Source: Candidatus Poribacteria bacterium (GTDB lineage Bacteria; Poribacteria; WGA-4E; WGA-3G). Taken from it: DNA of 64,000 nt. The position numbers and the translations under genes are program-made. Below the pieces are notes generated by a model. That model made no database searches. It was not told where the DNA came from and saw only the letters and a list, made by a program, of their open reading frames with translations. The stretch covers positions 5,408,001-5,472,000 of the forward strand of contig OZ242029.1 of the NCBI GenBank assembly GCA_965205015.1, written 5' to 3'. Below, one piece after another: positions 4,679-49,714 of the stretch (within the stretch, counting starts at the first letter, position 1; each line of letters begins with the position of its first letter).

Positions 4679-4790
4679 GGGTAGGCACAAGACCTACCCC
4701 TACGGTAGGGTAGGCACAAGACCTATTGCTACGGTAGGGTAGGCACAAGACCTATTGCTACGGTAGGGTAGGCACAAGACCTACCCCTAC
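4679..4790. repeat. tandem array of four 29-bp REP-like palindromic units
   Basis: GGGTAGGCACAAGACCTA(CCCC/TTGC)TACGGTA x4. Related units at 36243, 38041, 49715 and 54446. Confidence 0.9.
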
Positions 4791-15060: not shown

Positions 15061-15172
15061 GCGCGTGTTTCCTTTTGACTTGAAGTATTGCCTTTCCCGA
15101 AAGAGTATACAATGAATTGGGAAAATTTGCAAAGTTTTTTCATCGGTTCTGGCAGAACCATTCAGTTTTTCT

Positions 15173-15218
15173 GTAGGAGGGGAAGAAACACCCAAGCAAA
15201 AACACTCCGATTCCCGAC
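15173..15218. repeat. family-B repeat interrupted by a 21-bp insert
   Basis: GTAGGAGGGG + AAGAAACACCCAAGCAAAAAC + ACTCCGATTCCCGAC. Confidence 0.75.
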
Positions 15219-15388
15219 AATATTGGCTATCAGAAACCATCGGTTAATCGCTGAATGCCTCTGCGATTTTTGGAGGGATAGGTGGAAAGTTAAATGATGA
15301 ACCCAGACCCCATTTTTAAATAATCCCACCCCGTTCTCGGTTCAAAATCAAACTTATTCGAAGGTACTAACATCGCTGTCATACGCCT

Positions 15389-15541
15389 TTAGTGCGTATG
15401 CATGGGTTTAGGTTCAGGTAAAGAGACCGATTCTTGACCTGAAGGTGTCTCATCTATTTCCCAATGATACGTGAACGTGTTCGCCATGGCAGAAGAAGCC
15501 AGAAAATATATCAAAAATGTATGAAATAGTATTTTCTGCAC
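15389..15541 (-). pseudogene. short or truncated secreted-protein gene
   Basis: AAGGAG RBS then GTG: MQKILFHTFLIYFLASSAMANTFTYHWEIDETP..., a signal-peptide-like start, 50 aa. Not in the ORF track. Confidence 0.4.
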
Positions 15542-15883
15542 AGAAGGACTCCTTTCGGATTTTTGACTATTTACTTAAGTAGGGCGCAGTTTTACGACCT
15601 ACCCGGGTCGTGCTTTTGGGGGTTGCTATTTTTGTATTTGCCTTTCAGATCCTATCATTGCTGCGGCGAATCGTACGTTCTTTTCTTTTTCTCCCCCATA
15701 GTGAGCTTTGGGGCTAATCCCAGCGAAATTTCCTATGTCCGCGATTGCTGTGCCGGCGATTGCTCTGTCGTGGTCGCGTGCGTTCGGGTCAATATGGTGA
15801 TGGTATTATCCGCCCAATCGGGTTCAGGCTCAGGTGGGAGTGCTTCGGTGACGTCCTCTAATAGCTCCTCCTCTTCTTCATCG

Positions 15884-16534
15884 TCACCACCGCCACCAAG
15901 AAGAAGATGTTTCCAACTCTTCTAATAAGGACTGATGCAAGAGAACGATCCGATGTTGCGGACTTTCGAGTGTCAGCCAATTCCCTTCTACCTCCCACGT
16001 GTATTCGGTGCCGGCTTTCAATAGCGGCTGTATCTTCTGTTGAAAGAAGTTTGCTGTGTGAGCCCCTAAATCCGATTTGAGTGCCGCGAGTTTCTCTTCT
16101 GTTTCCGGTTGCCCTGCGGCTTCAGGGTTGTGGTAGACATCGACCTGCCGCTGTGTGCTGGCTGTCGTAATCGTCATTTTTTTGCCTGTCAATCTATTGC
16201 CGTGCGTCGTGTAACGCCCCTGGGTTGTGTAAGACACTTCTACCCAAATAACGGCTTCGGGGGATAGCCTAACAGTTCGAGAGGGTCTTAAGACGTGGGT
16301 CAACGCCCCTGTATAAGAGAAAAAAAGGCTGCCGTAAGAGCCGTAAACCAATTCACTCTTTTTTCTATTGAAGTCATTGACGGAGTAAATATCCCACCAC
16401 TCGGTGTAGACATCTGGGTCGTGCGGGTCGTCGTTGACTTCGTGCGGCGAGACAAAATCAGATGACTCTTCACCACACCCGATAATGCTGGCAGCAAATG
16501 CCATGATACAAAGCATCCATCTAACTATTTTCAT
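15884..16534 (-). CDS. putative lipoprotein
   Basis: MKIVRWMLCIMAFAASIIG-C lipobox. Confidence 0.7.
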   Translation of the reverse strand: MKIVRWMLCIMAFAASIIGCGEESSDFVSPHEVNDDPHDPDVYTEWWDIYSVNDFNRKKSELVYGSYGSLFFSYTGALTHVLRPSRTVRLSPEAVIWVEVSYTTQGRYTTHGNRLTGKKMTITTASTQRQVDVYHNPEAAGQPETEEKLAALKSDLGAHTANFFQQKIQPLLKAGTEYTWEVEGNWLTLESPQHRIVLLHQSLLEELETSSSWWRW

Positions 16535-16557
16535 AGGGCTTTCTCTTCCTTGACTGC

Positions 16558-16986
16558 CTATTCTATCGTCAGACACTCATGTTTGGATGTAATTTCAAAG
16601 TGTTTGACAATCCCATTAACATGGACGCTATAACGCCCTGGGAGGAGGCTTCCGAGTGCAAAATACACGGTTTCGTCCCACACAACCGTTGGACAATCAC
16701 CGGGGGCATCCGGGTGAGGTTCTGACGCCTGAACGGTAAGGTAATAGGTATTGCCGCCTTCCCATAAAAGCTCTGTGTCGTGGTAGTTTCTGCACCCATC
16801 GAGAGGTATTGTATACTTAACAAGAACGTATGCCGGTCTCTCAGATGTGGCATACACTTTGACGGAATCTTCATAGACGGGTGCCTCCGTAATAACGGGA
16901 TCATATCTCTCACATCCGGCGGACATGAATAAAATCATGCCTATGAGTCCGAAAAAAAGCGTGGTAACCACCTGTTTTCTATTCAT
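16558..16986 (-). CDS. putative lipoprotein
   Basis: MNRKQVVTTLFFGLIGMILFMSAG-C lipobox and a beta-rich domain with two Cys. Confidence 0.7.
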   Translation of the reverse strand: MNRKQVVTTLFFGLIGMILFMSAGCERYDPVITEAPVYEDSVKVYATSERPAYVLVKYTIPLDGCRNYHDTELLWEGGNTYYLTVQASEPHPDAPGDCPTVVWDETVYFALGSLLPGRYSVHVNGIVKHFEITSKHECLTIE

Positions 16987-17001
16987 CGTGATTTTTGCTC
17001 C

Positions 17002-17351
17002 TTAGAAGAGTTCGGTGCATAGAGCAGGAGTGGTGAGTGCCTGATAGTTGAGTGCCTGGGTTCCATCCGTCCAGGTGATCGTCAATACGGACAATTTTGG
17101 GGGAAAAGGACCCGTAATGTCGCTGTATTGCCGGGAACCGTAACCGTTCCAGCACTCACTGTGACATCATGCGGGGCATTATCGAAGATAACCGTAAGTG
17201 TATCACGCATGGGGGAACACGGGTAACCGGGTGGGAGCGCGCTGACGATGTTCGCAATGGGCGTGACTTCTTTAATGGCACGGGAGCAAGCGATGAGCGT
17301 TGTCAGAAAAAGTACTGCAAGGAGTGCAGTCGTGATCCGGATATATTTCAT
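17002..17351 (-). pseudogene. frameshifted lipoprotein gene
   Basis: MKYIRITTALLAVLFLTTLIA-C. After GNTAT the sensible sequence continues in another frame (ITGPFPPKLSVLTITWTDGTQALNY...). Confidence 0.55.
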
Positions 17352-17633
17352 ATCGTAGGACCTTCCTTTTCGATTGAAGTGCATACGCTTATTTAGACCA
17401 CAATTTCGCAAATTTAATCCAAGTTTTGTTGCTCGAATTCCATAGGTGTCAAATACCCTAACGCCGAATGTGGACGTTTCTGATGATACACCTGTGTGAT
17501 AAAATGCCCAATGCGGACTCTCGCTTTGATTGGTTCTCCATCCGGGACTCCTTCCAGTGAGAGTGTGATTGTAGCATAATCTTATATTGGAGAGTGGTCT
17601 AAATTTCCGGTGGCAGTACAGAGTCTCATAATG

Positions 17634-17707
17634 AGGCAGGTGCGGTTAGGGGATTTAGTCTGGGAATAGACTAAATCCGTTTCTTGTATTACATTCCGCA
17701 CCTGCCT
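17634..17707. repeat. nested inverted repeat (possible terminator or repeat element)
   Basis: AGGCAGGTGCGG...CCGCACCTGCCT encloses GGATTTAGTCT-N6-AGACTAAATCC. Confidence 0.6.
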
Positions 17708-18958: not shown

Positions 18959-19002
18959 TCCTTGTCTCCTTCACTCTTACTAAACTACGGTTTCCTATTC
19001 TA

Positions 19003-19926
19003 ACCCAAGTTGCCAGTTAGTAGGTAGTTGTAAATCCATGGGACCTCCTTTATAGTGTTTTTATACATAAAAAACTCAAAGGAGTATCCCATGGACTTGA
19101 CTATTGTAGAAGTTTACACGATTTGTGACGACTTTTTAATCGCAGCAGGCCACCAAGAGCATCCCTTGGCTAAAATGTCAGATGCTGAAGTCATGACGAC
19201 CGCTCTGATTGCCGCAAGATACTTTGGCGGGAATCAACACACGGCTTGTGCCGCCTTGAAAACCCTTGGATATATTCCAAACATGTTAGGACACTCGCGA
19301 TATAATCGCAGACTTCATCGGATCCGTGGTGTGTTTCAAACGCTGTTTGAACACTTCGCAGAGATATTCAAAGCAGAGAATCCGAATCAGATTTATAGCA
19401 TTGATACGTATCCGGTTTCCGTCTGCGACCCCATTCGCATTTCACGCTCACGCTTGTATCAAGGCGAAGCCTGGCGAGGAAGGATCGCAAGTAAACATCG
19501 CTATTTTTATGGTCTCAAGGCACATCTGATGGTCACTGAAGCCGGACATATCGTTGAAGCGTTCTTCACACCGGGACGTTGCAGTGATGTGCGAGGCTTA
19601 CGGTGTTATGGGTTCGATTTACCGCCGGGAGCCGTCGTCTATGCGGATAAGGCGTATTGCGATTATGCCATCGAAGATGCTTTACAAGAAGCAAGGATTA
19701 CGTTGAAACCCTTACGCAAGAAGAACGCCAAGCGTCAATATCCACCGTGGGAAGTTTATCTGCAACACACCTATCGCAAGCGTGTTGAGACTTCAAACAG
19801 TCTCATTGAACAGTTGCTCCCTAAGTCGATTCATGCGGTGACCCCTGCTGGATTTGAGTTGAAGGTCTTTTTGTTTATCATCGCTACTAATATCAAACAA
19901 CTTTTTACATAGGTAGCAACTTGGGT
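19003..19926 (+). mobile_element. IS982-family insertion sequence, apparently intact
   Basis: Terminal IRs ACCCAAGTTGC / GCAACTTGGGT with flanks TATTCTA and TATTATA. Encodes one DDE transposase. Confidence 0.9.
19091..19912 (+). CDS. IS982-family transposase
   Basis: MSDAEVMT, YSIDTYPV, YFYGLKAHL, YADKAY, RKRVETSNS. ATG at 19091 after AAGGAG. Confidence 0.92.
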   Translation: MDLTIVEVYTICDDFLIAAGHQEHPLAKMSDAEVMTTALIAARYFGGNQHTACAALKTLGYIPNMLGHSRYNRRLHRIRGVFQTLFEHFAEIFKAENPNQIYSIDTYPVSVCDPIRISRSRLYQGEAWRGRIASKHRYFYGLKAHLMVTEAGHIVEAFFTPGRCSDVRGLRCYGFDLPPGAVVYADKAYCDYAIEDALQEARITLKPLRKKNAKRQYPPWEVYLQHTYRKRVETSNSLIEQLLPKSIHAVTPAGFELKVFLFIIATNIKQLFT

Positions 19927-20075
19927 TATTATAACACAAACACTGGGTGTCTGCAACTTTTTGAGGAGTGCCACCCGCCACCGAGCGACAGCATCTGGTA
20001 CGGGATGCACTGTTCGATGCGCAATTTCACCCGATCAAACGGCACCTGTGGCTGGGGTGGGAAAAAATCATCTTT

Positions 20076-21023
20076 CTATTGTGGATAGACATACAGATGA
20101 AACACATCGCCGGGCGCGATATCCTCACCCATCAGGCGCAAATCTTTCGATTGCTCCTGCGTGATGTCGACATGCTGGATATAGGCGTAATTCCCGCTAT
20201 AACGGAGGTCGGCGTGCGTGAACTCGATCCGCCGACCGAACCGGTTGCGGCGGTGCGGGGCAGAACGTTGCGTCCACGCGAGCCGAAACGCTGCTGGCAA
20301 CCCATCTTGGATGCGTTGACCCGCTGCTGCCCGCAATGTGAGACCGTTTACATCATAGGCAAGACCGGTAAGCGTGAGACTGTAGAGGCGTGTTGACCCT
20401 GACCAGAAATAGCCCGTCTCTGCGATTGCGGTGAACTCTACAGCGTCGTTGTGAGAGGGGTTCGCGCTCGTATCCGCGGGGATACTGCGCTCTACAGGCG
20501 TGTTGTCTATCGGTCTGCCGTCTGTCGAAGCGTTTTGATACATCAATGAGATTTCCCACGTGTTTTCACGCAACTTCAACGCGTCGGTAAAGATAAATCT
20601 GACGTTCTCGTGTCTGCCGACACCAAAACGCTGGAAATCCGATTCGTTTCGGAAGTTCAAAAAGAAGTAGATGAACTGCGGAATCCCGTTATGCGTCCAG
20701 CGGGTCGCATGGGGCGGGTGAGAGCCCGTGCTCAGGCGCACCCACCGATTCTCCCGTTCAGAACGTCTCACACGCCGAGACCTATACAAAACCTCACACG
20801 CTGCGAGTCTGAATTCCTCGCCGGCTATGTCGTCGATACCGACAGCGTGTTTCGCGGCATACGGAAAAATCAACTCGTCAATCGTGATCGCATCGGGCGT
20901 CCATGAGGGTGCAGCGGGGACAGTCTCATCAGTCAGTGGCAGGGTCCTATTGACAACCCCTTCGTCACCGCAGCCTGATAGCAATGTGATGAAAAAAAGG
21001 CACGTGAAAAAGTTGCGTAACAT
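20076..21023 (-). CDS. putative lipoprotein of unknown function
   Basis: MLRNFFTCLFFITLLSG-C lipobox and GGAGG RBS. Confidence 0.7.
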   Translation of the reverse strand: MLRNFFTCLFFITLLSGCGDEGVVNRTLPLTDETVPAAPSWTPDAITIDELIFPYAAKHAVGIDDIAGEEFRLAACEVLYRSRRVRRSERENRWVRLSTGSHPPHATRWTHNGIPQFIYFFLNFRNESDFQRFGVGRHENVRFIFTDALKLRENTWEISLMYQNASTDGRPIDNTPVERSIPADTSANPSHNDAVEFTAIAETGYFWSGSTRLYSLTLTGLAYDVNGLTLRAAAGQRIQDGLPAAFRLAWTQRSAPHRRNRFGRRIEFTHADLRYSGNYAYIQHVDITQEQSKDLRLMGEDIAPGDVFHLYVYPQ

Positions 21024-21181
21024 GATGTTGCCTCCAGTTCGGTTAGGGTGGGGGTTGTAACCTCACCTGTTGGGGTATTTCATGAGTGTGTTGCCCCGGG
21101 ATCTTCACCGCACATCGCACTATGCTGGGACGGGCTCAGATCGGTACTATCGTCGGGCACAGGCCCAGGGGTCAATATGTT

Positions 21182-21278
21182 CTTTCATATACGCACAGGT
21201 TCGATTAAAAGGTGGTGAAACGGCTTCTACAGATGCCGGAGGACACGCGTTTCAATTCCAAACGGGTTCAATGAGAAG
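21182..21278 (-). CRISPR. orphan CRISPR-like mini-array: repeat, 37-bp spacer, degenerate repeat
   Basis: Minus strand: CTTCTCATTGAACCCGTTTGGAATTGAAAC (30 bp, 21249-21278, ending in the ATTGAAAC handle), spacer 21212-21248, then CTTTTAATCGAACCTGTGCGTATATGAAAG (21182-21211, 20/30 identical). No cas genes in the window. Confidence 0.7.
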
Positions 21279-21309
21279 CCCCAAAGGCAATCTTTTAGAC
21301 GTATCCATC

Positions 21310-21504
21310 TCAAGATTTTCTATATTTTCGGATCAACGCCCCGATACCATAGCAGATCGGCACCCAGACAGCCGTTGCTATCAAATACATTGGCCATCTC
21401 TCAATCGAGTAGATGAAGCCAACAACCCATGTCACGATTGCAACCGTTTTCATCCATCTTTGCTTGAAGGCGACAAAAAGAACCACAGAAATCAGAAAAA
21501 TCAC
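21310..21504 (-). CDS. small hydrophobic membrane protein (64 aa)
   Basis: AAGGAG RBS before the GTG start, two to three hydrophobic segments and a basic C-terminus (RKYRKS). Confidence 0.55.
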   Translation of the reverse strand: MIFLISVVLFVAFKQRWMKTVAIVTWVVGFIYSIERWPMYLIATAVWVPICYGIGALIRKYRKS

Positions 21505-21570
21505 GCCAAAAAACTCCTTACGTGCTAAAGACGCTCGCGAAAAACGAGATTTATACAGGATTCGCCTGTC

Positions 21571-21655
21571 GCCTGCTAAAACCGCTTTCCACGGCGGTGG
21601 ATAGCACTCGCAACGGAGATTGTTGCGAGGTGGAAACGCTATCCAACAGGCTTAT
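21571..21655 (-). ncRNA. putative structured RNA with a three-way junction and pseudoknot
   Basis: P1 GCCUGUU/AGCAGGC, P2 GGAUAGC/GCUAUCC, P3 CUCGCAAC/GUUGCGAG, P4 ACCGC/GCGGU. The bulge UUUCCAC is complementary to the P4 loop GUGGAAA. It begins right at the predicted transcription start. Confidence 0.65.
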
Positions 21656-21660
21656 GTCGT

Positions 21661-21690
21661 ATTATACACTGTTTGCGGGGGAACCGTCAA
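21661..21690 (-). promoter_or_regulatory. near-consensus sigma70 promoter
   Basis: TTGACG-N18-TATAAT on the minus strand, with an A-rich upstream tract. Confidence 0.7.
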
Positions 21691-21705
21691 GTTTTTGTTT
21701 TATAA

Positions 21706-24700
21706 TCACTGATATGCTTCGTTGTCAAGTAAAGCCAAGTACAACTTATAGAACGCCACGCTTTCTTGAAGTCTCGATCCTGTTAACATTTCATGGAGAG
21801 AATTAATCAAACGTTCGAGAGACTTCGGATCATTCTGCGAACTGCGCAGACTTCTAAACACTTCAAGTGTTTGCTTCCTAAAGTTGTCAAATGCCACTGA
21901 ATTCTCAGCCAATTTTCCCCAATATTGTTCATCGTCAGGAAAAGATTCGATAATTCCACTATCTCCAAGAACATTGGTCGTTAACGTCCCAATGGGTAAA
22001 GCCCCATTTTCTTTCGGGCTAATATTCCCCACCGGTTTTATATGTTCAAAGTAGCCTGATACCTCCTGATTGATCGGGTGAAATAACTCCCGACAGGCTC
22101 GCCAGTGCAACTTTATCTCCTCCAACCGTTGGCTAAATCGACGTTCTTCCTCAATCGCATCCAAATCGAACTTATCAGAATTTTTATCAATGTGAACGGG
22201 GTCTTCATCTCCATTTCGATACCTATCCTGAGCTTTATCATAGGCTTCCTTGAGTTGCTTGCTAACAAGAATATCGTTAATGGTGTAGCCAGCTTCCATC
22301 AGATAAAGCACCTGGAGGCTTGGGACAGGAAAATTACCTTCGAATTCCGCTTGTGTTTTAAATCTCAAATCTTCGTCGTCATTCTCAGGTTGAGCAAAGA
22401 GATAGCGGAAAAGTCTTGTTGTGCCACCTTGTTGCTCGAATTTTAATCGGTAGTTCTCATAGTTGGGAGTGAATTCTTGATAAGGACTTGAACGCTTATG
22501 GGCATCCTTGTCAAAAGAAAAATTGGCAAAAGAAAAATTGGGCGCAACTTCATTAAAAGATTCTCTTAACATATCTCTTACAGCCCACTTGAAAGCATCA
22601 GGTTCAGCCCTGAGTAGGAGATCAATTAACTTTTCAAGCGGTGTTTCCGAAAGGACGCGCTGCCCTAAAACATGAGCTACATTTTTGTCTGAGAAATTGC
22701 GATCTGATCCTACAATTAAACCAAATGCTTGCTCGATAGCAGCGATTTCCGTTGCTACGTTGCTGAGTAAGCCATCAATCTCCGCCAACATACGCTCAAA
22801 AGTTATTGAAATCCAGTGATTAACGAGCCTATCATGATACTCCTGTTGAAGCCACTTCAGTGCCGGTTCAAGTTTATCAATATCAATAACGTCCCGATTT
22901 CGTTTATCCCTTCCAAAGATTCCTGTGCTAATCTCTTCAGTTGCAATAGCACCGTCCACGGCATTATCCGCATCTGTTTTGAGATTAGGATCCGCTGCAG
23001 AGTTCAACCCTTTCTGATTTTTTTCAATAAGGTTTTTAACCTCGCGAAGAAAATCTGACTTTGGCTTGAGTTGACAATACCCCTTGAGATTTCTCAACTT
23101 TTGGTCCAAGTCTTTACGAAATTGACGACGATACTGGTCACTATTTTTTTCAAAGACAGTACCATATGCTCCCTTAGGCGTCCATGAATGTAAATAAGAC
23201 TCAGCTTTCATCTTGGCTGTTTTGCGATCATGTGGATCAAATTTAGGAACGGAGGGGTTAATGGCGTCGTCGGTTTGAGAAATTTTTGCTCTTACATCGT
23301 CGAAAGAAACCAGTGTATTCGGGTCAGCAACACCACCTGCAGGGGGACTTTTTCTCCAGCGATCGCGAAGTATCCGAGTAAACCCTTCAACAGTAGAGGT
23401 AATGGTTGAATATTTAGGTTTCCCAGTGATCTCTACCCCAGAACTGAACATGTACTGGACAAATTCCCCACCCTGCCTCACTTGTCCAAAACGATAGTCC
23501 CGCTTTGGGACATTTGCAAGATCTGCTTCAATGCGTGCATCAATCCCAAGACTCCGAGCGAAGAGGTCCTTCGCTGCCATTTTACTAAGTTGTTCCCTCT
23601 CAAACAAACCTTCTGAGTTTACACAATTCCAGCTTTCCATATTGGTAGCAGAAAGGAATGTGGCAACGTGAAATGGGGCTTCGTATGTGTTAATGTAAGA
23701 ACCATTAGGGAACCGAACTTCATACCGCGTTTCAGGGCGTTTATAGTAGTCTAACTCAACGAGACTTGCGTAGCAGTTTGCTAACAAAATAGCCGAGTCG
23801 CCACCTAAAGCAAGTCCCTCATTATACATTGTAAAGATACCGTAAATTCGAGTATCCGCATTTCCGATGTGCCGGAAGTAATAAGCAATGTCCAACAACA
23901 TCCCGCTGCATGTTCCACCGCAGAGGGTTCCCACAAGAAACACGTTGTGTTTCTGATTATCAACATTGATTGCGCTATTGAAATGGTTCTTTAGAAATCT
24001 CTCGGCTTCGTTCTTATGATCTGGGTGTAAGAAAGCATGATATGCCTGAGTGAGTTTGGGTCTAACCGTATTATTCCATTTTTCCCAGAGCGATAAGCGC
24101 CCTGCCATTCGGAGGTTCCCGGCACCCGCACCCGCAAGCTTTACAGATTCGCTATCCAATATCCTTTTATCCAGCCATTTCGCTAGATATTTATCGTATA
24201 CCGGACTCTCTGGGTCTATTCTTTCACGGATCGGATCGGTATACGGGATAGATGTGTGGACAACATCATTAACTTCGTACGGCTTTGGCTTCAATCCTTC
24301 CTGAATTTTAGGGACGCCGCTTTCATACCAACCTTGAATACGATTCTCACCATCCAAGTGAAGATCTTTGCCATTATTCGTCTCATCGGTCTCAATGGAT
24401 ACATATCTGAAAATAGGAAGTCCTGCCTGTCCATATTCGTTAAGGTTAAGTTCCCGAAGATTCGTTAGAATTTCGACACCTGTTGTTCCTAACCCTACAT
24501 ACAACGTCGGTCTGATTTCCATATTCGCACCTCTATTTACAACGGACTTTGGGGCATTTTCAGAAGATGACTGCCCCTCTGCTTGTATAAAATTATCTTC
24601 TCCCAACACTGCTGTCTCAAATTGAAACTGTGTCATCGGTAAAAAACGACCGTCCCCTTGATTCTCAAAGTATTCCCAATGACTCGGACCTGCTTGCGTA

Positions 24701-25008
24701 TTGGCGAATATCCCATAACGCGTCGCTGTTACGTTAAGGTAAGCCTTTAACTGATCGGGACCGTCTCCGGTGACGCCCTCCCTCTTGCACTCTACAATAA
24801 CATCAAGAAGGACAGGAGGGCTTTTGCCTATATTTTCAGCCTCGATCCTATTTTTTTCCGCAATCAGCACAACATCGGCAGACCCTCGAGAACTAAAACT
24901 CTGAATTTGATGTTCGCACTTGGAATAAAAATCCCTGAATTTGGGTTCATTGAAATAGTTTACAACAACATCAACGACTTTAGCTTCCAGAGGCAGTTTC
25001 TCTTTCAT
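21706..25008 (-). CDS. PD-(D/E)xK (HsdR-N-like) nuclease fused to a divergent tubulin/FtsZ-like GTPase (Tubulin_2/FtsZl1 type) with a helical C-terminal region
   Basis: N-terminal SADVVL...IVECKR...QLKAY...YGIFAN. Tubulin-like PTLYVGLGTTG, SIETD, GAGAGNLRMAGRL, GTLCGGTCSGMLLDIAY, ANCYASLVEL. Visibly more AT-rich than neighbouring genes. Confidence 0.8.
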   Translation of the reverse strand: MKEKLPLEAKVVDVVVNYFNEPKFRDFYSKCEHQIQSFSSRGSADVVLIAEKNRIEAENIGKSPPVLLDVIVECKREGVTGDGPDQLKAYLNVTATRYGIFANTQAGPSHWEYFENQGDGRFLPMTQFQFETAVLGEDNFIQAEGQSSSENAPKSVVNRGANMEIRPTLYVGLGTTGVEILTNLRELNLNEYGQAGLPIFRYVSIETDETNNGKDLHLDGENRIQGWYESGVPKIQEGLKPKPYEVNDVVHTSIPYTDPIRERIDPESPVYDKYLAKWLDKRILDSESVKLAGAGAGNLRMAGRLSLWEKWNNTVRPKLTQAYHAFLHPDHKNEAERFLKNHFNSAINVDNQKHNVFLVGTLCGGTCSGMLLDIAYYFRHIGNADTRIYGIFTMYNEGLALGGDSAILLANCYASLVELDYYKRPETRYEVRFPNGSYINTYEAPFHVATFLSATNMESWNCVNSEGLFEREQLSKMAAKDLFARSLGIDARIEADLANVPKRDYRFGQVRQGGEFVQYMFSSGVEITGKPKYSTITSTVEGFTRILRDRWRKSPPAGGVADPNTLVSFDDVRAKISQTDDAINPSVPKFDPHDRKTAKMKAESYLHSWTPKGAYGTVFEKNSDQYRRQFRKDLDQKLRNLKGYCQLKPKSDFLREVKNLIEKNQKGLNSAADPNLKTDADNAVDGAIATEEISTGIFGRDKRNRDVIDIDKLEPALKWLQQEYHDRLVNHWISITFERMLAEIDGLLSNVATEIAAIEQAFGLIVGSDRNFSDKNVAHVLGQRVLSETPLEKLIDLLLRAEPDAFKWAVRDMLRESFNEVAPNFSFANFSFDKDAHKRSSPYQEFTPNYENYRLKFEQQGGTTRLFRYLFAQPENDDEDLRFKTQAEFEGNFPVPSLQVLYLMEAGYTINDILVSKQLKEAYDKAQDRYRNGDEDPVHIDKNSDKFDLDAIEEERRFSQRLEEIKLHWRACRELFHPINQEVSGYFEHIKPVGNISPKENGALPIGTLTTNVLGDSGIIESFPDDEQYWGKLAENSVAFDNFRKQTLEVFRSLRSSQNDPKSLERLINSLHEMLTGSRLQESVAFYKLYLALLDNEAYQ

Positions 25009-25039
25009 AAGTATCCTTCACCTTTATTTACTAAAGTTT

Positions 25040-25967
25040 ACCTAAGTTGCCACTAATCTTCAAATTGCATTTTTATATTTGTGGCGATAAGAAATAAAAA
25101 CAGTTTCAACTCAAATCCGTGGGTCTCCGTCACGGCGTGGATGGACTTGGGTAAAAGTTTTTCAACCAGACTATTAGTCACTTCAACGCGTTTCCTGTAA
25201 CGCTGCTGTAAGTATACTTCGTGAGGTGGATACTGACGCTTTGCATTCTTCTTGCGCAAGGGTTTGAACGCAATACCGACATCACCGAGGGCATCTTCAA
25301 TGGCATAGGTACAATAGGCTTTATCGGCATAAACCACCGATCCTTGCGGGAGATCAAACGTATAATATCACATGCCTACAACATCGTTGCATCCGCCCGG
25401 AGTGAAGAACGCTTCAACGATTTCACCCGTCTCGGAAACCCTCAGATGCGCCTTCAGTCCATAGAAATGCCGGCGTTTGCTGGCGATCTTGCCTCGCCAT
25501 GTTTCGCCTTGATACCGGCGACACCGAGAGATACGGATGTTATCACAGACGACGACAAGAAAGGTATCCACCGAATAGATATTATTGATGTTCTCGGTCT
25601 TCGCCGTTTCAACCAACTGTTCAAAGAGCGTCTGAAACAGCGGTCTGATCCGATGAAGTCTACGATTGTAGCGAGAGTGTCGAAGCATATTTGGAATATA
25701 TCCCAGCGTCTTCAAAGCAGCGCACGCGTTTCGGTGGTTGCCTGCGAAGTATCTCGCCGCAACGACTACCGTGGTCATGACTTCAGCATCTGTCATCTGT
25801 GTTTGTGGATGCTCTCGATGTCCGAGTGAAATTAAAAGATCGTCACAAATCGTATAAACTGCTACAATAGTTAGGTCCATGGGAGACTCCTTTGGTTTTA
25901 TCGTGATGTAAAAACTATAAAGGAGATCCCATGGATTTACAACTTTTTTATAGGTAGCAACTTAGGT
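25040..25967 (-). mobile_element. IS982-family insertion sequence with an inactivated transposase
   Basis: IRs ACCTAAGTTGC / GCAACTTAGGT. Homologous to, but diverged from, the copy at 19003. Right flank TATTCTA. Confidence 0.88.
25053..25880 (-). pseudogene. IS982 transposase with an in-frame premature TGA
   Basis: ORFs 25368..25880 and 25053..25337 share a frame (VGM*YYTFDLPQGSVVYADKAY). The stop aligns with an Arg codon of the intact copy. Confidence 0.88.
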
Positions 25968-26043
25968 TATTCTACAAAAGAGTGAACAGGCTAACAGCCT
26001 ATTCTACAGCAAATTGTCCAAACTATAGTCACTCTTAATGATA

Positions 26044-31411: not shown

Positions 31412-32413
31412 CTATATCCAACCATCTTCAATCATCAATGTCAACGGCGATTCCATCTCTTCCAGGGGTAGATGAATCCGTTGCCGTTTCCGAGAGGACT
31501 CATAGATCGCCATGAGTAGTTCGTGGGTGGCGTATCCCTGATGACCACTGGAGCGGTGTTCCCGACCTTCCTCAATAGCCTCAATCATGTCTCGCACAGG
31601 GGTGCTTTCTGACGGGAGTTCGGGTGTTACCCACTCTCCACCTGATTCTGCGGTACGGTAACGGATAGAGGGTCCACCGGGAGCAGCGAGTTCAAGCTCG
31701 CCTTCCGTTCCATAACAGTAGATGTGGTGATAACCGGAGGCGGTATCGCTGCCCGATTCAATGATCGCCCGCACATTGTCTTCGAACTTGAAGTAGCCGA
31801 TCGCGAAATCCTCGGAATGCAAGTCATATTTGGTCGGCGTGCCAATGCGTTCAATCTGACCGATCACCCAGCTTACGGGACGGTCGCCATAGACATATCG
31901 CATCAGATCAACCGTATGCGTAGCGTTATCCTTCAGGTCGCCTCCGCCACAGACCCCGTGAATGCGAAAGATATCGCCGATCACACCCGCAGCAATCATC
32001 TGTCTTGCGGCTTCATAGGGTGCGCTAAATCGTACTTGATGGTCGATCGCCAATTTCACATTGTGCTGTGAACAGGTTTCCAGCATCTCCCGCGCCTGTC
32101 CGAGGTTCTCCGCCATCGGCTTTTCTGAAAGAATCCCTTTCACACCCCGTTTCGCGACCTCAATTGCCACCGGCGCATGCAGTTTCGGACGGGTGCAAAC
32201 GGAGACTAAGTCAATCTTTTCCGTTTCGAGCATCTCAATGTAATCGGTATACTGTTTTTCGACCCCGTACTGTTCGCCGTAAGCTTTCAGTCCCTTTGGG
32301 TTAATATCCGCAATCGCCGTCAGAGAAGCCCTCGGTTCATTCACATACCATCCGGCGTGCATGTGAGAAATCCCACCGCACCCAACTATTGCAACGTTGT
32401 AGGTTTTATCCAT
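31412..32413 (-). CDS. Gfo/Idh/MocA family oxidoreductase
   Basis: IVGCGGIS, SEKPMA, HTVDLM. Confidence 0.9.
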   Translation of the reverse strand: MDKTYNVAIVGCGGISHMHAGWYVNEPRASLTAIADINPKGLKAYGEQYGVEKQYTDYIEMLETEKIDLVSVCTRPKLHAPVAIEVAKRGVKGILSEKPMAENLGQAREMLETCSQHNVKLAIDHQVRFSAPYEAARQMIAAGVIGDIFRIHGVCGGGDLKDNATHTVDLMRYVYGDRPVSWVIGQIERIGTPTKYDLHSEDFAIGYFKFEDNVRAIIESGSDTASGYHHIYCYGTEGELELAAPGGPSIRYRTAESGGEWVTPELPSESTPVRDMIEAIEEGREHRSSGHQGYATHELLMAIYESSRKRQRIHLPLEEMESPLTLMIEDGWI

Positions 32414-32425
32414 TAGAGACTCCTC

Positions 32426-33154
32426 TTATTTCTTTTTTGTTTCGTGTTCCAAGCAGGACAAAACATCATGTAGATTTGAGATGGAGTAATCTGGTTGTTC
32501 GTCTACTGTTTTTGCCCCCAACACATCTGACTTTCGGTCAATGAGAATGCTGGTCATGCCGGCGCGGTTGGCACCCACGATGTCGTTTTCAACGGTATCA
32601 CCGACGAACAGAGCCGCTTTCGGTGAAACGCCTGCGCGTTCACAAGCGACTTTGAAGATTTCAACCTTCGGTTTTCTGACACCGATTTCACCGGAAATCG
32701 TCAACGACTGGATACGCTCGCTGAGACCCAGGTGTCGGACTTTAGAAAGTTGACTGTCGGTGTGTTCATCGTGCGCACCGTTTGTAATAATGCCGACATG
32801 GTATGTATGTAACTTCTCAAGGACGGTGACGTCGTCGTAAAGCCTTAAACTCGTGAGGTAACGCGAACAGAAAAAGTCGCTTAGTTCTTCCATAACTCTA
32901 TCTATGGGTAGATCCAATTCTTTGAACAAACACTCGAAACGTGAGTCTCTCACGTCTGCCATAGCACATTTTCCGGCGTCGAGTTGCTTGAAGAGTTCCT
33001 GGTGGACTGTTTTCCATGCCTCTGTAAGCACCTCTTCTGAAATAGCTGGATACTGCTGGCGCAGAAGCTGAAACATTTCTCTTTGCGCGATGCTCCATGC
33101 CGTATCGGAGTCGCAAAGTGTGCCATCAAGGTCAAAGAATACTGCTTTAATCAT
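32426..33154 (-). CDS. HAD-superfamily hydrolase
   Basis: FDLDGTL, ITNG, KP, VGDTVENDIVGA. Confidence 0.9.
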   Translation of the reverse strand: MIKAVFFDLDGTLCDSDTAWSIAQREMFQLLRQQYPAISEEVLTEAWKTVHQELFKQLDAGKCAMADVRDSRFECLFKELDLPIDRVMEELSDFFCSRYLTSLRLYDDVTVLEKLHTYHVGIITNGAHDEHTDSQLSKVRHLGLSERIQSLTISGEIGVRKPKVEIFKVACERAGVSPKAALFVGDTVENDIVGANRAGMTSILIDRKSDVLGAKTVDEQPDYSISNLHDVLSCLEHETKKK

Positions 33155-36015: not shown

Positions 36016-36242
36016 TTGGTCCTACCCTCCATTTCAGAATATTAGATCCCCTTCGGTAAGATTAGTTCCGTAATTTACCTAAGTTGCTCTGTTTCCTTAT
36101 CATGGTCACAACACGGGTTCAATTGATACAAGAAACCTCTATAGACCTATAGTACTAATGAAGATCGAGAATTTAATCGAGTAATGCGCGATGTTAATTG
36201 TTTGAATCAGGATTCACAGGATTAAAGGATTTGCGGGAATGC

Positions 36243-36315
36243 GGATAGACACAAGACCCATCTCTCGGGTAGGCACAAGACCCATCTCTCGGGTAGGCAC
36301 AAGACCTACCCCAAC
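36243..36315. repeat. three tandem REP-like units (24-bp period)
   Basis: GGGTAGGCACAAGACCCATCTCTC variants, same family as 4679-4790. Confidence 0.8.
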
Positions 36316-38040: not shown

Positions 38041-38158
38041 CTGGGCAGCCACAAGAACTGTCGCTAAACACCTCTGGGTAGCCACAAGGGCTACCCCTAC
38101 TTCTGGGCAGCCACAAGGGCTACCCCTACTTCTGGGCAGCCACAAGGGCTACCCCTAC
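38041..38158. repeat. tandem REP-like units (29-bp period)
   Basis: TCTGGGCAGCCACAAGGGCTACCCCTACT x3 plus a degenerate copy. Confidence 0.85.
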
Positions 38159-39045
38159 TAATGACGGTAGGTCTCACCGATTAAGTTATTGGCAGCGCGG
38201 ACGGGCCGGAAAAGGGTCTGCCGTTTGGCTGGCATTTCAGCTAACAATTTCGGGTGCGGATCCCAATCGTGCCACTTGCTATTGACGGTATTGTAGCAAC
38301 TGAAAATAGCGAGTCGGTCATTTTCCGCATTCGTCCACGTGTGTGTACTATGGGTCAATGCCTCTGTGAAAAAGAGGAGGGACCCAGCCGGACACTCATA
38401 GGTATCCCAAATCGGAGAGTCCTGGCTTTGGATTGTGTCGGGTGCTGTGTAGACGGCTTTATGGCTCGCCGTAATAAACAGGGTGCCTCCCTGCCGATAT
38501 TTGACGGGATTCAGTTCCCAGACGATACGCGTTAAGCCGCTATAGCCTCTGCCGGGGATACACCGATAGAGGTGCGAATCACCGGGAAAACGGAGCATCC
38601 CGTTTCCGTTGTGGGGTCCAAAGTTTCCATCACCCGCTGTCCGATAGAACAAACTACACGATTCCATACGGAAACCGTAGCATTCCTGGCTCGACAACGC
38701 CGGATGCGCGAGAAACTCGTTGAGAAAACCGATGACATTCGGATGGTCGGCGAGCCGTTGCATAGGACCGCCGAGCGGGGAGCGTTCATGTTCGGGAATC
38801 GACTCGGGTTCGTGGCGGAGTTTGTACCCGAACTCTTGCATCTCTGCGAGCGTATCGCCCGACAACACGCCCGGCACTAAAAGCCATCCGCGCATGTCAA
38901 AGAGGTATTTCTGTTCTTGTGTCGGCGCGACGACGGGTGTCCCATCGGAGGTGGTCTCCGTGAGTTGTGCGTTATCAATGTCGAGTGCCGCCCCGAGGTT
39001 TTTATCAACAATAAACGGTTTGGTGTGATCCGTGACGGGTGCCAT
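38158..39045 (-). CDS. PhyH-like dioxygenase with an atypical metal motif
   Basis: QKYLFDMRGWL, PHNG, GGTLFITASHK, FTEALTHS. Start placed at MAPVTD. Confidence 0.75.
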   Translation of the reverse strand: MAPVTDHTKPFIVDKNLGAALDIDNAQLTETTSDGTPVVAPTQEQKYLFDMRGWLLVPGVLSGDTLAEMQEFGYKLRHEPESIPEHERSPLGGPMQRLADHPNVIGFLNEFLAHPALSSQECYGFRMESCSLFYRTAGDGNFGPHNGNGMLRFPGDSHLYRCIPGRGYSGLTRIVWELNPVKYRQGGTLFITASHKAVYTAPDTIQSQDSPIWDTYECPAGSLLFFTEALTHSTHTWTNAENDRLAIFSCYNTVNSKWHDWDPHPKLLAEMPAKRQTLFRPVRAANNLIGETYRH

Positions 39046-46749: not shown

Positions 46750-47763
46750 CTACAAACTCGGCATATCGACCGCGCTGTCTCGCCGTTCATGCATATTTTT
46801 TTCCATCGCTTCAGGATACCGATCTGGAAGATGTGAGACTTTATTGAGTTTTTGAAGGGCATCGCCTTCAAGCCTCCACCCGGATGCCCCGAGATTATCG
46901 CGTAAATGCCCCGTATGCCTCGCCCCGACGATCACTGAAGTCATTGTTCGCTGTTCAAGCACCCATCGGAGCGCAACTTGAGCAGGACTATGTCCAAGTT
47001 CGTCAGAAACGTCAAGGAGTGCCTGTAACGTTTCATCGGCGTTGTCGGCGAAATAGCGTTCTGGATACGCCCACCCTTCAGCCGATCGCGTTCCGCCTTG
47101 TGTGCGTTCGCCCGGTCTATATTTCCCAGAGAGAAATCCACCCGCTAACGGACTCCACACGACGACACCAAGCCCTTTACGTTCACAGAGGGGTACAATC
47201 TCTTGCTCTATATCTCGAACGACGAGACTGTATTGCGGTTGATAGCATGCAAATCGGACCCAATTGTTTACATCGCTGAGCCATAACGCTTCGGACAGTC
47301 GCCACGCTTGGTAGTTGCTACACGCCGTATAGCGGACTTTCCCTTGTTGAACGAGATCGTCCAGCGCGCGGAGCATCTCCTCTAACGGTGTTTGCGTATC
47401 AACGTGATGAATATAGTAGATGTCTACATAGTCCATCTGCAGGCGTTTGAGGCTATCGTCAATCGCCTGCATGATATGGGCGCGAGACATCCCGGAATCG
47501 TTGGGACCGGTGCCCATCGGGTTGAAAAATTTGGTTGCGATGACCGCATCGCGTCGTCTGCCCTTGAGTGCCTTGCCGAGGAGGACTTCGGATTCGCCTT
47601 CGGCATAAGAGTTCGCTGTATCAAAAAAGTTGACCCCCGCATCCAGCGCGAGGTCCACCATGCGGTTTGTTTCTGCCTCGTCGGCACCGTGACCAAAGGT
47701 CATTGTTCCTAAACAGATTTCGGATACCTTAATCCCGCTTCTTCCGAGTCTTCTATATTCCAC
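46750..47763 (-). CDS. aldo/keto reductase
   Basis: LGRSGIKVSEICLGTMTF, FFDTANSY, WSPLAGGFLSGKY. Confidence 0.92.
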   Translation of the reverse strand: MEYRRLGRSGIKVSEICLGTMTFGHGADEAETNRMVDLALDAGVNFFDTANSYAEGESEVLLGKALKGRRRDAVIATKFFNPMGTGPNDSGMSRAHIMQAIDDSLKRLQMDYVDIYYIHHVDTQTPLEEMLRALDDLVQQGKVRYTACSNYQAWRLSEALWLSDVNNWVRFACYQPQYSLVVRDIEQEIVPLCERKGLGVVVWSPLAGGFLSGKYRPGERTQGGTRSAEGWAYPERYFADNADETLQALLDVSDELGHSPAQVALRWVLEQRTMTSVIVGARHTGHLRDNLGASGWRLEGDALQKLNKVSHLPDRYPEAMEKNMHERRDSAVDMPSL

Positions 47764-49518: not shown

Positions 49519-49714
49519 TCTACTCCCTACCGCGATTACCCTTACGCGCAATGAATTGCGCGACTACAAACCAGATGGAACCTTTGAGGAACATTGGTAT
49601 TTTGAAGGTGTACTTGTTGATAACAAGGAAACTCTTTATCGCCTGTCTGCGTAAGTCTTACTTATTATGGTAAATCCCATAATTAAGTGGACACTGGAGC
49701 GGGACGCTGTGAGT

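What the first reader, a model, noticed from the sequence alone, without database searches (positions are those of the whole stretch)
21182..21278. Orphan single-spacer CRISPR-like unit that array finders would probably miss
Seen: a 30-bp repeat ending ATTGAAAC, a 37-bp spacer (GCGTGTCCTCCGGCATCTGTAGAAGCCGTTTCACCAC on the minus strand), and a 30-bp degenerate repeat (20/30 identical). Established: the lengths and handle fit type I-B/III arrays, and mini-arrays occur in mobile elements as regulatory guides, homing guides or decoys. I found no convincing target in the window by eye.
Basis: partly seen in the sequence, partly recalled or inferred. Interest (0 to 1): 0.72.

Follow-up and report, generated by a model that had tools for sequence, protein, structure and literature searches.

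The report
CRISPR array remnant inside a transposon
The two repeats and one spacer are the last unit of a sponge-symbiont type I-B CRISPR array, cut off from its leader and cas genes and carried inside a 7-kb composite transposon, where it is most likely an inert relic.

Summary
Read on the minus strand, the unit has three parts.
- Repeat R_A (21278-21249) matches the repeat family of Candidatus Poribacteria type I-B arrays at 26/30.
- The spacer (21248-21212) is 37 nt.
- Repeat R_B (21211-21182) matches the family at 23/30. Its first 14 nt are identical and its 3' half is decayed, as in terminal repeats of full arrays.

The next best match in the window scores 19/30. The same family forms arrays in 88 of 175 genomes of the phylum. 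It lies next to Cas1b in 3 of 3 loci checked, and in one of them next to a full I-B operon.

The unit has no leader. No cas gene was found in the 64-kb window. No spacer target was found in any collection searched.

The unit lies in a 6,965-bp element (19003-25967) bounded by two inverted IS copies and a 7-bp direct repeat (TATTCTA). One relative keeps the unoccupied site with a single TATTCTA, and 10 of 10 relatives lack the element.

Other Poribacteria genomes carry comparable one- to three-spacer orphan arrays. Five of five tested lack I-B Cas7.

Verdict: the unit is a real orphan mini-array, a new member of a known kind, and probably a relic. Function in trans is not excluded, because the rest of the genome could not be searched.

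The parts
21249..21278 (-). Repeat R_A, the upstream repeat on the transcribed (minus) strand. It ends in ATTGAAAC, the family's 8-nt 5' handle.
   Evidence: 26/30 to the family consensus and 27/30 to variants in 7 of 175 genomes. None is closer than 3 mismatches.
21212..21248 (-). 37-nt spacer
   Evidence: Its length is within the family's spacing (start-to-start 62-70 nt). No second match was found in the window, in 175 genomes, in IMG/VR, in JGI metagenomes, or in phage and plasmid records.
21182..21211 (-). Repeat R_B, a degenerate terminal repeat
   Evidence: 23/30 to the consensus. The first 14 nt are identical and 7 of the last 16 differ. Last repeats of full arrays show the same pattern, for example L016 and L010.
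21310..21504 (-). orf64, a 64-aa hydrophobic ORF with AAGGAG before its GTG start. Its stop lies 31 nt upstream of R_A.
   Evidence: A 57% identical homologue over 54 aa exists in G174 (tblastn E 3.8e-16).
21661..21690 (-). Sigma-70-like promoter TTGACG-18-TATAAT (11 of 12 matches). It is the only strong promoter upstream of the unit.
   Evidence: No terminator-like site lies in 20900-21800.
21560..21650 (-). Structured RNA motif between the promoter and orf64
   Evidence: Homologues exist in 4 other genomes. 17 of 26 predicted pairs show compensatory changes. There is no Rfam match.
21146..21175 (-). Weaker promoter-like site TTGACC-18-GATAGT just downstream of R_B and upstream of the 315-aa gene
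   Evidence: 9 of 12 matches; consensus match only
20076..21023 (-). 315-aa ORF with a lipoprotein-like N-terminus
   Evidence: No Pfam or PADLOC family. No homologue in 175 phylum genomes at E<=1e-5. The lipoprotein reading comes from the sequence by eye only.
21706..25008 (-). 1,100-aa Tubulin_2 (PF13809) protein with a weak N-terminal HSDR_N_2 match
   Evidence: Nearest homologues are 86% and 70% identical, on contigs that could not be fetched.
19003..19926 (+). IS-left, an IS4/IS5-type DDE transposase element. The intact 285-aa gene is at 19055-19912.
25040..25967 (-). IS-right, a related IS in inverted orientation. Its transposase is 74% identical to IS-left's over 277 aa and is interrupted by one in-frame stop.
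   Evidence: Its inner end matches multi-copy ends in many genomes at 88-95%.
18996..19002 (.). Left copy of the 7-bp direct repeat TATTCTA (target-site duplication)
   Evidence: G132 has one TATTCTA at the unoccupied site.
25968..25974 (.). Right copy of the 7-bp direct repeat TATTCTA
19003..25967 (.). Composite transposon of 6,965 bp that carries the mini-array as cargo
   Evidence: Absent from 10 of 10 relatives' sites. Empty-site contigs occur in runs X1 and X4.

Best explanation
The unit is the terminal unit of a Candidatus Poribacteria type I-B CRISPR array: the penultimate repeat, the last spacer and the degenerate terminal repeat. It has been separated from its leader and its cas genes. 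It now lies as passenger cargo between two genes of a 6,965-bp IS-bounded composite transposon that inserted into this genome's lineage.

Shown:
- The repeats belong to the family.
- The orientation is on the minus strand.
- The terminal-repeat decay pattern is present.
- There is no leader, and no cas gene in the window.
- The unit lies inside the transposon, which has a target-site duplication and a known empty site.

Inferred:
- The unit can be transcribed only by read-through from the orf64 promoter 380 nt upstream.
- Without a leader it cannot take up new spacers.
- It is most likely an inert relic that was carried along with the transposon.

If the host does encode type I-B Cas6b and Cascade, R_A still supplies an intact ATTGAAAC handle. 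One crRNA of about 67 nt could then be cut out. This cannot be settled with what was available.
For: - Family membership. The 3' 21 nt of R_A hits a 56-repeat array in G001. That array follows Cas8b1, Cas7/Cst2, Cas5b, Cas3, Cas4, Cas1b, Cas2 and a 256-nt leader.
- The family (up to 2 mismatches to a degenerate pattern) occurs in 88 of 175 genomes of the phylum. It starts just downstream of Cas1b in G132 and G154 as well.
- R_A and R_B score 26 and 23 of 30 against the consensus; the window's next best is 19.
- R_B keeps the first 14 nt and loses the 3' half, as do last repeats of full arrays.
- No leader. The 60 nt upstream of R_A are the end of orf64. Leader, trailer and Cas proteins of the G001 locus find nothing in the window.
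- No Cas family appears in the top-25 PADLOC and Pfam lists for 48 other ORFs or for the island's ORFs.
- No repeat within 2 mismatches of R_A exists in 175 genomes. The R_A-type pattern gave 0 hits in JGI metagenomes.
- The spacer has no match. Its best partial match in the window is 23/37, against a shuffle mean of 21.9 and maximum of 26.
- Transposon: inverted IS copies, a 7-bp direct repeat with a single-copy empty site in G132, and a direct junction in 10 of 10 relatives.
- Comparable orphan mini-arrays exist in G161, G130, G142, G146 and G040. Five of 5 have no I-B Cas7 and no Cas1b above cut-off. This shows that such remnants persist in this phylum without their cas genes.
Against: - The genome outside the window could not be searched, so cas genes acting in trans are not excluded.
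- R_A keeps the whole 8-nt handle, and its three differences from the consensus leave the weak predicted stem intact. Two of the three, plus its C at position 15, are seen in live arrays or other copies elsewhere. R_A may therefore equal an unsampled array consensus rather than a decayed copy.
- The unit sits on the same strand as its flanking genes, downstream of an 11/12 consensus promoter, with no terminator-like site between. It is therefore probably transcribed.
- The unit is identical in contigs of two studies (X1 and X4). This looks like the same strain, so it says nothing about selection.
Confidence: 0.6

Rival explanations
1. A working orphan crRNA gene. The unit is transcribed by read-through from the orf64 promoter. 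A type I-B Cas6b encoded elsewhere in the genome cuts it in R_A (and perhaps R_B). The crRNA is loaded into Cascade and guides interference against an unsampled virus or a competing mobile element, to the benefit of the host or of the transposon.
For: - The ATTGAAAC handle is intact and the spacer length is typical.
- It shares a strand with a strong promoter, with no terminator-like site between.
- Close relatives G132 and G154 carry Cas1b with arrays of this family.
- Virus-borne mini-arrays used in conflicts between elements are described (PMC6858448, PMC7099407 and PMC11656645; search listing and abstract starts only).
Against: - It has no leader or promoter of its own, unlike the mini-arrays of G161, G130 and G146.
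- No target was found in 175 genomes, IMG/VR, JGI metagenomes, phages or plasmids.
- No array anywhere searched uses the R_A sequence.
- R_B is heavily decayed.
- cas genes in this genome are not shown.
Confidence: 0.2
2. A regulatory crRNA-like RNA of the CreA/CreR kind, or simply a Cas6 cleavage site. In the first case Cascade loaded with this RNA binds a partially matching promoter and represses it. In the second case Cas6 cutting in R_A separates the orf64 and 315-aa gene messages.
For: - Two repeat-like sequences with a degenerate distal repeat are the typical form of regulatory mini-arrays, and type I-B has many (PMC10120712, passages read with 'find').
- A small hydrophobic ORF lies directly upstream, and a promoter-like site lies directly downstream.
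Against: - Described regulatory mini-arrays lie in or close to cas loci and are conserved among related loci. This one is at least 21 kb from any possible cas gene and sits in a strain-specific insertion.
- No 5' seed of 10 nt or more, and no partial match above shuffle level, occurs anywhere in the window, including both local promoters.
Confidence: 0.08
3. An RNA decoy (Racr-like). The repeat-bearing transcript of the mobile element binds Cas6 or Cascade subunits of the host's type I-B system and weakens CRISPR immunity.
For: - Repeat mimics encoded as solitary repeat units by viruses inhibit CRISPR-Cas (PMC10651486, abstract start in the search listing).
- The unit is on a mobile element.
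Against: - The carrier is an IS composite transposon in the chromosome, not a virus or plasmid that has to survive entry.
- The unit has no dedicated promoter.
- No other copy of the unit was seen on any virus or plasmid record.
Confidence: 0.04
4. Chance resemblance of two unrelated 30-mers to CRISPR repeats.
For: The 20/30 identity between the two copies is at chance level for this window.
Against: Both copies match an outside repeat family far above the window's background (26 and 23 against 19). They lie on the same strand at the family's spacing. The decay pattern is that of a terminal repeat.
Confidence: 0.01

Closest known systems
Type I-B CRISPR arrays of Candidatus Poribacteria (for example record JAAXHD010000264.1 = G001:C362)
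   Same: The 30-nt repeat family ends in ATTGAAAC. Spacing is about 67 nt. The orientation is the same, and the last repeat is decayed at its 3' end.
   Different: It has one spacer instead of tens. It has no leader, no adjacent cas operon, and R_A is 3 mismatches from every repeat seen.
Standalone mini-arrays with a degenerate distal repeat (Shmakov et al. 2023, PMC10120712)
   Same: Two repeat-like sequences flank one spacer and the distal repeat is degenerate. The paper proposes an origin from the terminal unit of an array (passage read).
   Different: Those were searched for in or near cas loci, are conserved among related loci, and their spacers partly match cas or cargo promoters. Here there is no cas locus nearby, no conservation is shown, and no promoter match was found.
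Orphan or isolated CRISPR arrays away from cas genes
   Same: It is an array remnant with no cas gene in the neighbourhood. Similar one- to three-spacer remnants occur in other Poribacteria genomes that lack I-B Cas7.
   Different: Those relatives' remnants keep a promoter-bearing leader (G161, G130, G146). This one does not, and it is cargo of a transposon. The paper on arrays away from cas genes is recalled and was not read; one search listed only papers that cite the phrase.
Mini-CRISPR arrays and solitary repeat units of viruses and plasmids (PMC6858448, PMC10651486)
   Same: A CRISPR-derived unit of minimal size is carried by a mobile element.
   Different: The carrier is an IS composite transposon, not a virus. 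No target in related elements and no dedicated promoter were found. These papers were seen only as search listings and abstract starts.
CreTA RNA toxin-antitoxin pairs of haloarchaeal type I-B loci
   Same: Type I-B is involved, and a spacer is flanked by divergent repeat variants (description read in the introduction of PMC10120712).
   Different: CreA lies between cas genes and its spacer matches the adjacent toxin promoter. Here no such match exists and no cas genes are near.

Membership tests
CRISPR array of the Poribacteria type I-B repeat family | Repeats match the family's repeat sequence | tested here: met
   R_A is 26/30 and R_B 23/30 to the consensus; the window background maximum is 19. 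The family occurs in 88 of 175 phylum genomes.
CRISPR array of the Poribacteria type I-B repeat family | Repeat-spacer periodicity typical of the family (30-nt repeat, spacer about 33-40 nt) | tested here: met
   30 + 37 + 30 nt. The family's start-to-start spacing is 62-70 nt.
CRISPR array of the Poribacteria type I-B repeat family | Leader with promoter directly upstream of the first repeat | tested here: not met
   The upstream 31 nt follow the orf64 stop codon. There is no similarity to the G001 leader or to the leaders of the G161, G130 and G146 mini-arrays.
CRISPR array of the Poribacteria type I-B repeat family | Cognate cas genes next to the array or elsewhere in the genome | tested here: inconclusive
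   None in the 64-kb window. The rest of the genome is not held. The Cas1b cluster list shows no representative on a contig of the window's length, but cluster members are hidden.
CRISPR array of the Poribacteria type I-B repeat family | Spacer derived from a mobile element (a protospacer is found) | tested here: not met
   0 matches in 175 genomes with up to 3 mismatches. Exact 37-mer and 26-mer gave 0 in IMG/VR, and the 26-mer gave 0 in JGI metagenomes. Only chance hits (E>=1) occur in phage and plasmid records. Most spacers have no known match, so this is weak evidence.
Regulatory mini-array (crRNA-like RNA; CreA/CreR type) | Located inside or close to a cas locus | tested here: not met
   No cas gene within 21 kb on one side or 43 kb on the other.
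Regulatory mini-array (crRNA-like RNA; CreA/CreR type) | The 5' part of the spacer matches a promoter next to a PAM | tested here: not met
   No 5' seed of 10 nt or more elsewhere in the window. The best ungapped match is 23/37, at shuffle level. The whole genome is not testable.
Regulatory mini-array (crRNA-like RNA; CreA/CreR type) | Conserved among related loci | not testable with these tools
   10 of 10 relatives lack the whole insertion.
RNA anti-CRISPR (Racr) / solitary repeat unit of a mobile element | Encoded by a virus, plasmid or prophage, with its own promoter | tested here: not met
   The carrier is an IS composite transposon. The nearest strong promoter is 380 nt upstream and serves orf64.
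Composite transposon | Two IS copies bound a cargo segment | tested here: met
   IS-left is 19003-19926 and IS-right 25040-25967, inverted. They are 71% identical over 771 nt, and their transposases are 74% identical.
Composite transposon | A target-site duplication flanks the whole unit, and an unoccupied site is known | tested here: met
   TATTCTA lies at 18996-19002 and 25968-25974. G132 has one TATTCTA between the same flanks. 10 of 10 relatives join the flanks directly. Empty-site contigs occur in X1 and X4.

The most novel reading that the evidence does not exclude
An IS composite transposon carries its own leaderless guide. The single-spacer unit is expressed as part of the cargo operon and cut out by the host's type I-B Cas6b. 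The transposon uses it to direct host Cascade against a competing element or a host site, or to soak up Cas proteins. This would extend mobile-element-borne mini-arrays from viruses and plasmids to simple transposons in an uncultured sponge symbiont.
Probability: 0.1. Interest if true: 0.7.

Novelty: new member of a known kind. Interest (0 to 1): 0.35.

Why it matters
- A two-repeat unit that looks like chance on its own can be tied to a real CRISPR family once a related genome's array is found. Such remnants travel as transposon cargo.
- For Poribacteria, which are uncultured sponge symbionts rich in CRISPR, it adds a picture of array decay. One- to three-spacer remnants persist in genomes that have lost type I-B genes.
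- If the unit were shown to be processed and loaded, it would be an example of a transposon-borne guide.
- As it stands, it is an ordinary by-product of CRISPR locus turnover and of IS activity.

Tried and rejected
- Rfam found no CRISPR-DR family at gathering score. There were only chance-level hits on R_A.
- The window's own genome is not held, so the genome's own arrays and cas genes could not be searched.
- I tried to infer cas presence from contig lengths. The window's protein lies on a contig of 5,654,351 bp. None of the 120 best Cas1b cluster representatives has that length.
- No RNA holder was listed for the stretch.
- Run X6 holds a relative about 92% identical over the Tubulin_2 gene. 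Its 10.5-kb contig ends at window 21613, so it does not show whether the mini-array is kept there.
- Tubulin_2 homologues in G054 and G068 are only 40% identical and have no repeat nearby.
- The 315-aa ORF has no homologue in 175 genomes, so no donor context was found.
- The plasmid collection has no match to 20500-22500.
- Repeats fold no better than shuffles. This family seems unstructured, so folding does not discriminate.
- Ectopic spacer integration was considered and rejected. The two repeats differ at 10 of 30 positions and each resembles the family more than the other copy, so they are not a fresh duplication.
- A type III origin was considered, but no evidence supports it.
- Supplementary files of PMC10120712, which may list mini-arrays by genome, were not asked for because supplements are closed.
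- The paper on CRISPR arrays away from cas genes is recalled. It is not in the library as a held text.
- The 8-nt handle and Cas6 cut site, the claim that type I-B interference can work without the 3' handle, and the resemblance to the Haloferax repeat are recalled and come from no call.

Full report
**Observation.** Two 30-mers lie at 21182-21211 and 21249-21278, with 37 nt between them. The two copies share 20 of 30 positions. That figure alone is not evidence. The same window holds 21 clusters of 30-mer pairs with at least 20/30 identity at spacings of 50-90 nt, several of them in unrelated sequence. Rfam gave nothing at gathering score. On a permissive scan it gave only chance-level matches of the second copy to two CRISPR-DR families.

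**What makes it real.** The 21-nt 3' part of the second copy, read on the minus strand, was scanned through one genome per species.
- It hit one record, a Candidatus Poribacteria MAG contig.
- That contig carries a 56-repeat array with consensus CTTTTAATCGAACCAGTTTGGAATTGAAAC and spacing of 62-70 nt.
- The array is preceded by Cas8b1/Cst1, Cas7/Cst2, Cas5b, Cas3, Cas4, Cas1b, Cas2 and a 256-nt leader with TTGACA...TATAAT about 23 nt before the first repeat.
- With up to two mismatches to a degenerate pattern, the family occurs in 88 of 175 genomes of that phylum, mostly as long arrays.
- In G132 and G154, close relatives of the window, arrays of the family begin just downstream of a 90% identical Cas1b.

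Both window copies score well against the family consensus.
- Scored over the window on both strands, R_A (21278-21249) reaches 26/30 and R_B (21211-21182) 23/30. The next best are 19 once and 18 nine times.
- Each copy resembles the family more than it resembles the other copy.
- R_A has the 3' two-thirds exactly, including the ATTGAAAC end.
- R_B has the first 14 nt exactly and differs at 7 of the last 16.
- Last repeats of full arrays decay in the same way, for example L016 and L010.

So the unit, read on the minus strand, is repeat, 37-nt spacer, terminal repeat. It has the form of the last unit of a type I-B array.

**What it lacks.**
- There is no leader. The 31 nt upstream of R_A follow the stop codon of a 64-aa ORF.
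- The leader, trailer and eight proteins of the G001 locus find nothing in the window.
- No Cas family appears for the neighbouring ORFs or in the top-25 family lists for 48 other ORFs.
- R_A is not the repeat of any array seen. The nearest repeats in 175 genomes are three mismatches away, in 7 genomes. An R_A-type pattern found nothing in JGI metagenomes.
- Three of R_A's departures (C at position 4, T at 9, C at 15) occur in other genomes' copies. Only C at position 6 is unique. R_A could therefore equal an unsampled consensus.
- The spacer has no second match in the window and none in 175 genomes with up to three mismatches.
- The spacer has no match in IMG/VR or JGI metagenomes, and only chance hits in phage and plasmid records.
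- The spacer's best partial match in the window is 23/37. Shuffled spacers give a mean of 21.9 and a maximum of 26. No 5' seed of 10 nt or more recurs.

**Where it sits.** All local genes are on the minus strand. In order they are:
- a 1,100-aa Tubulin_2 protein;
- a TTGACG-18-TATAAT promoter;
- a structured RNA motif;
- orf64, which has a good Shine-Dalgarno sequence;
- the mini-array;
- a weaker promoter-like site;
- a 315-aa ORF.

No terminator-like site lies between 21800 and 20900. Read-through transcription of the unit is therefore plausible, but it is inferred. No RNA run was listed (see Tried and rejected).

**The carrier is a composite transposon.**
- The window is 81-95% identical to many Poribacteria genomes.
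- In 10 of 10 relatives fetched, the flank ending near 18980 abuts the flank starting near 26034.
- The segment between is bounded by two inverted IS copies, 71% identical over 771 nt. The left transposase is intact. The right one is 74% identical and has one in-frame stop.
- G132 has the sequence GGTTTCC-TATTCTA-CAAAAGA at the site. The window has the same flanks with TATTCTA on both sides of a 6,965-bp unit that starts ACCCAAGTTGC and ends GCAACTTAGGT.
- This is a 7-bp target-site duplication around the whole unit, with a known unoccupied site.
- Logan contigs of two studies carry the cargo without differences. Contigs with the empty site also exist in those runs, from other strains.

**Comparable remnants elsewhere.**
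- Twelve low-copy loci were fetched.
  - G161, G142, G130 and G146 have two repeats and one spacer.
  - G040 has three repeats.
  - G039 has two clusters.
  - G109, G115 and G030 have solitary repeats.
- None has type I-B cas genes within about 10 kb. The exception is G147, where a repeat abuts a cas1 fragment.
- Five of five tested genomes (G161, G130, G142, G146, G040) have no I-B Cas7 and no Cas1b above cut-off. Only G161 is a multi-megabase contig, so absence in the others is weaker.
- The G161 unit lies among ordinary chromosomal genes.
- The G161, G130 and G146 units keep a promoter-bearing leader like that of full arrays. The window's unit does not.

In this phylum, short remnants of type I-B arrays persist without their cas genes.

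**Mechanism.** The most likely reading (0.6) is that the unit is an inert terminal-unit relic that was carried into this genome as transposon cargo. The rivals are:
- a crRNA gene used in trans by a type I-B system elsewhere in the genome (0.2);
- a crRNA-like regulator or Cas6 processing site (0.08);
- a decoy RNA (0.04);
- chance (0.01).

The relic reading rests on the missing leader, the missing target, the decayed R_B and the phylum-wide pattern. The cas content of the rest of the genome could decide it, but that could not be read.

**Comparison with what is known.** The form matches the standalone mini-arrays with a degenerate distal repeat described by Shmakov et al. They propose an origin from the terminal unit of an array and report an excess of ectopic repeat copies linked to the presence of CRISPR-Cas (PMC10120712, passages read). 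The window's unit fails the features of their regulatory class: it is not near cas genes, has no promoter match, and no conservation is shown. It also differs from virus-borne mini-arrays and solitary repeat units in its carrier and its lack of a promoter (listings only). It is best filed as an orphan CRISPR remnant. That makes it a new member of a known kind, and the transposon carriage is its only unusual feature.

Noticed in passing
window 21560-21650 (minus); L108-L111: A structured RNA motif of about 90 nt lies right after a consensus promoter and upstream of orf64. It is 72-75% identical to loci in G161, G173, G130 and G066. 17 of 26 predicted pairs show compensatory changes among 5 sequences. 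No Rfam family matches. In G173 and G130 the homology continues for about 300 nt without a long ORF.
   Followed up: partly
window 47785-49551 (minus): A 588-aa protein matches the OLD/AriA/GajA/AbiLi-type ATPase models of PADLOC (best E 2e-21). It is a possible defence gene, and its neighbour 46750-47763 was not examined.
   Followed up: partly
window 15153-17705: A second segment of about 2.5 kb (ORFs 15563-15925, 15884-16576, 16558-16986; no PADLOC family) is absent from G161, G140 and G132 between conserved flanks.
   Followed up: no
window 18978-18995 plus 25975-26033; L053/L040 (G132): The transposon landed inside an ~87-nt segment that G132 shares but G140 and G161 lack. The segment is flanked by CTCT/ACTCT-type short repeats and may be the remnant of an earlier small insertion.
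   Followed up: partly
window 4679-4790, 36242-36306, 38073-38159: Short tandem arrays with 24-29-nt units share a core of the form GGGTAGGCACAAGACCTACCC, an imperfect palindrome. They are possibly REP-like elements.
   Followed up: no
L094 (G161:C1 about 4002185-4002282), L096 (G130:C94), L097 (G146:C974): One-spacer arrays carry a conserved promoter-bearing leader (gatcgtgTATAAT about 24 nt before repeat 1) in genomes where no I-B Cas7 or Cas1b was found.
   Followed up: partly
L105 (G030:C60 about 32400-32510): A repeat plus 51 nt of flank is tandemly duplicated (period 81 nt), so the two 'spacers' are near-identical. Two further solitary repeats in the same genome (C14, C51) include one preceded by TATAAT.
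   Followed up: no
L010 3335-4003: A gene for a REP-associated tyrosine transposase-like protein (below the family cut-off) sits inside the type I-B cas operon between cas5b and cas3.
   Followed up: no
L102 (G147:C327 4939-5109): A family repeat directly abuts a cas1 fragment that starts at residue 217, downstream of cas5 and cas3 matches. This is either a rearranged locus or an assembly join.
   Followed up: no
window 21174-21507 in run X4: Summed contig depth in this bin is about 3,600, against single digits in the neighbouring bins. It probably comes from array contigs of abundant relatives laid on the repeats. This was not resolved.
   Followed up: no
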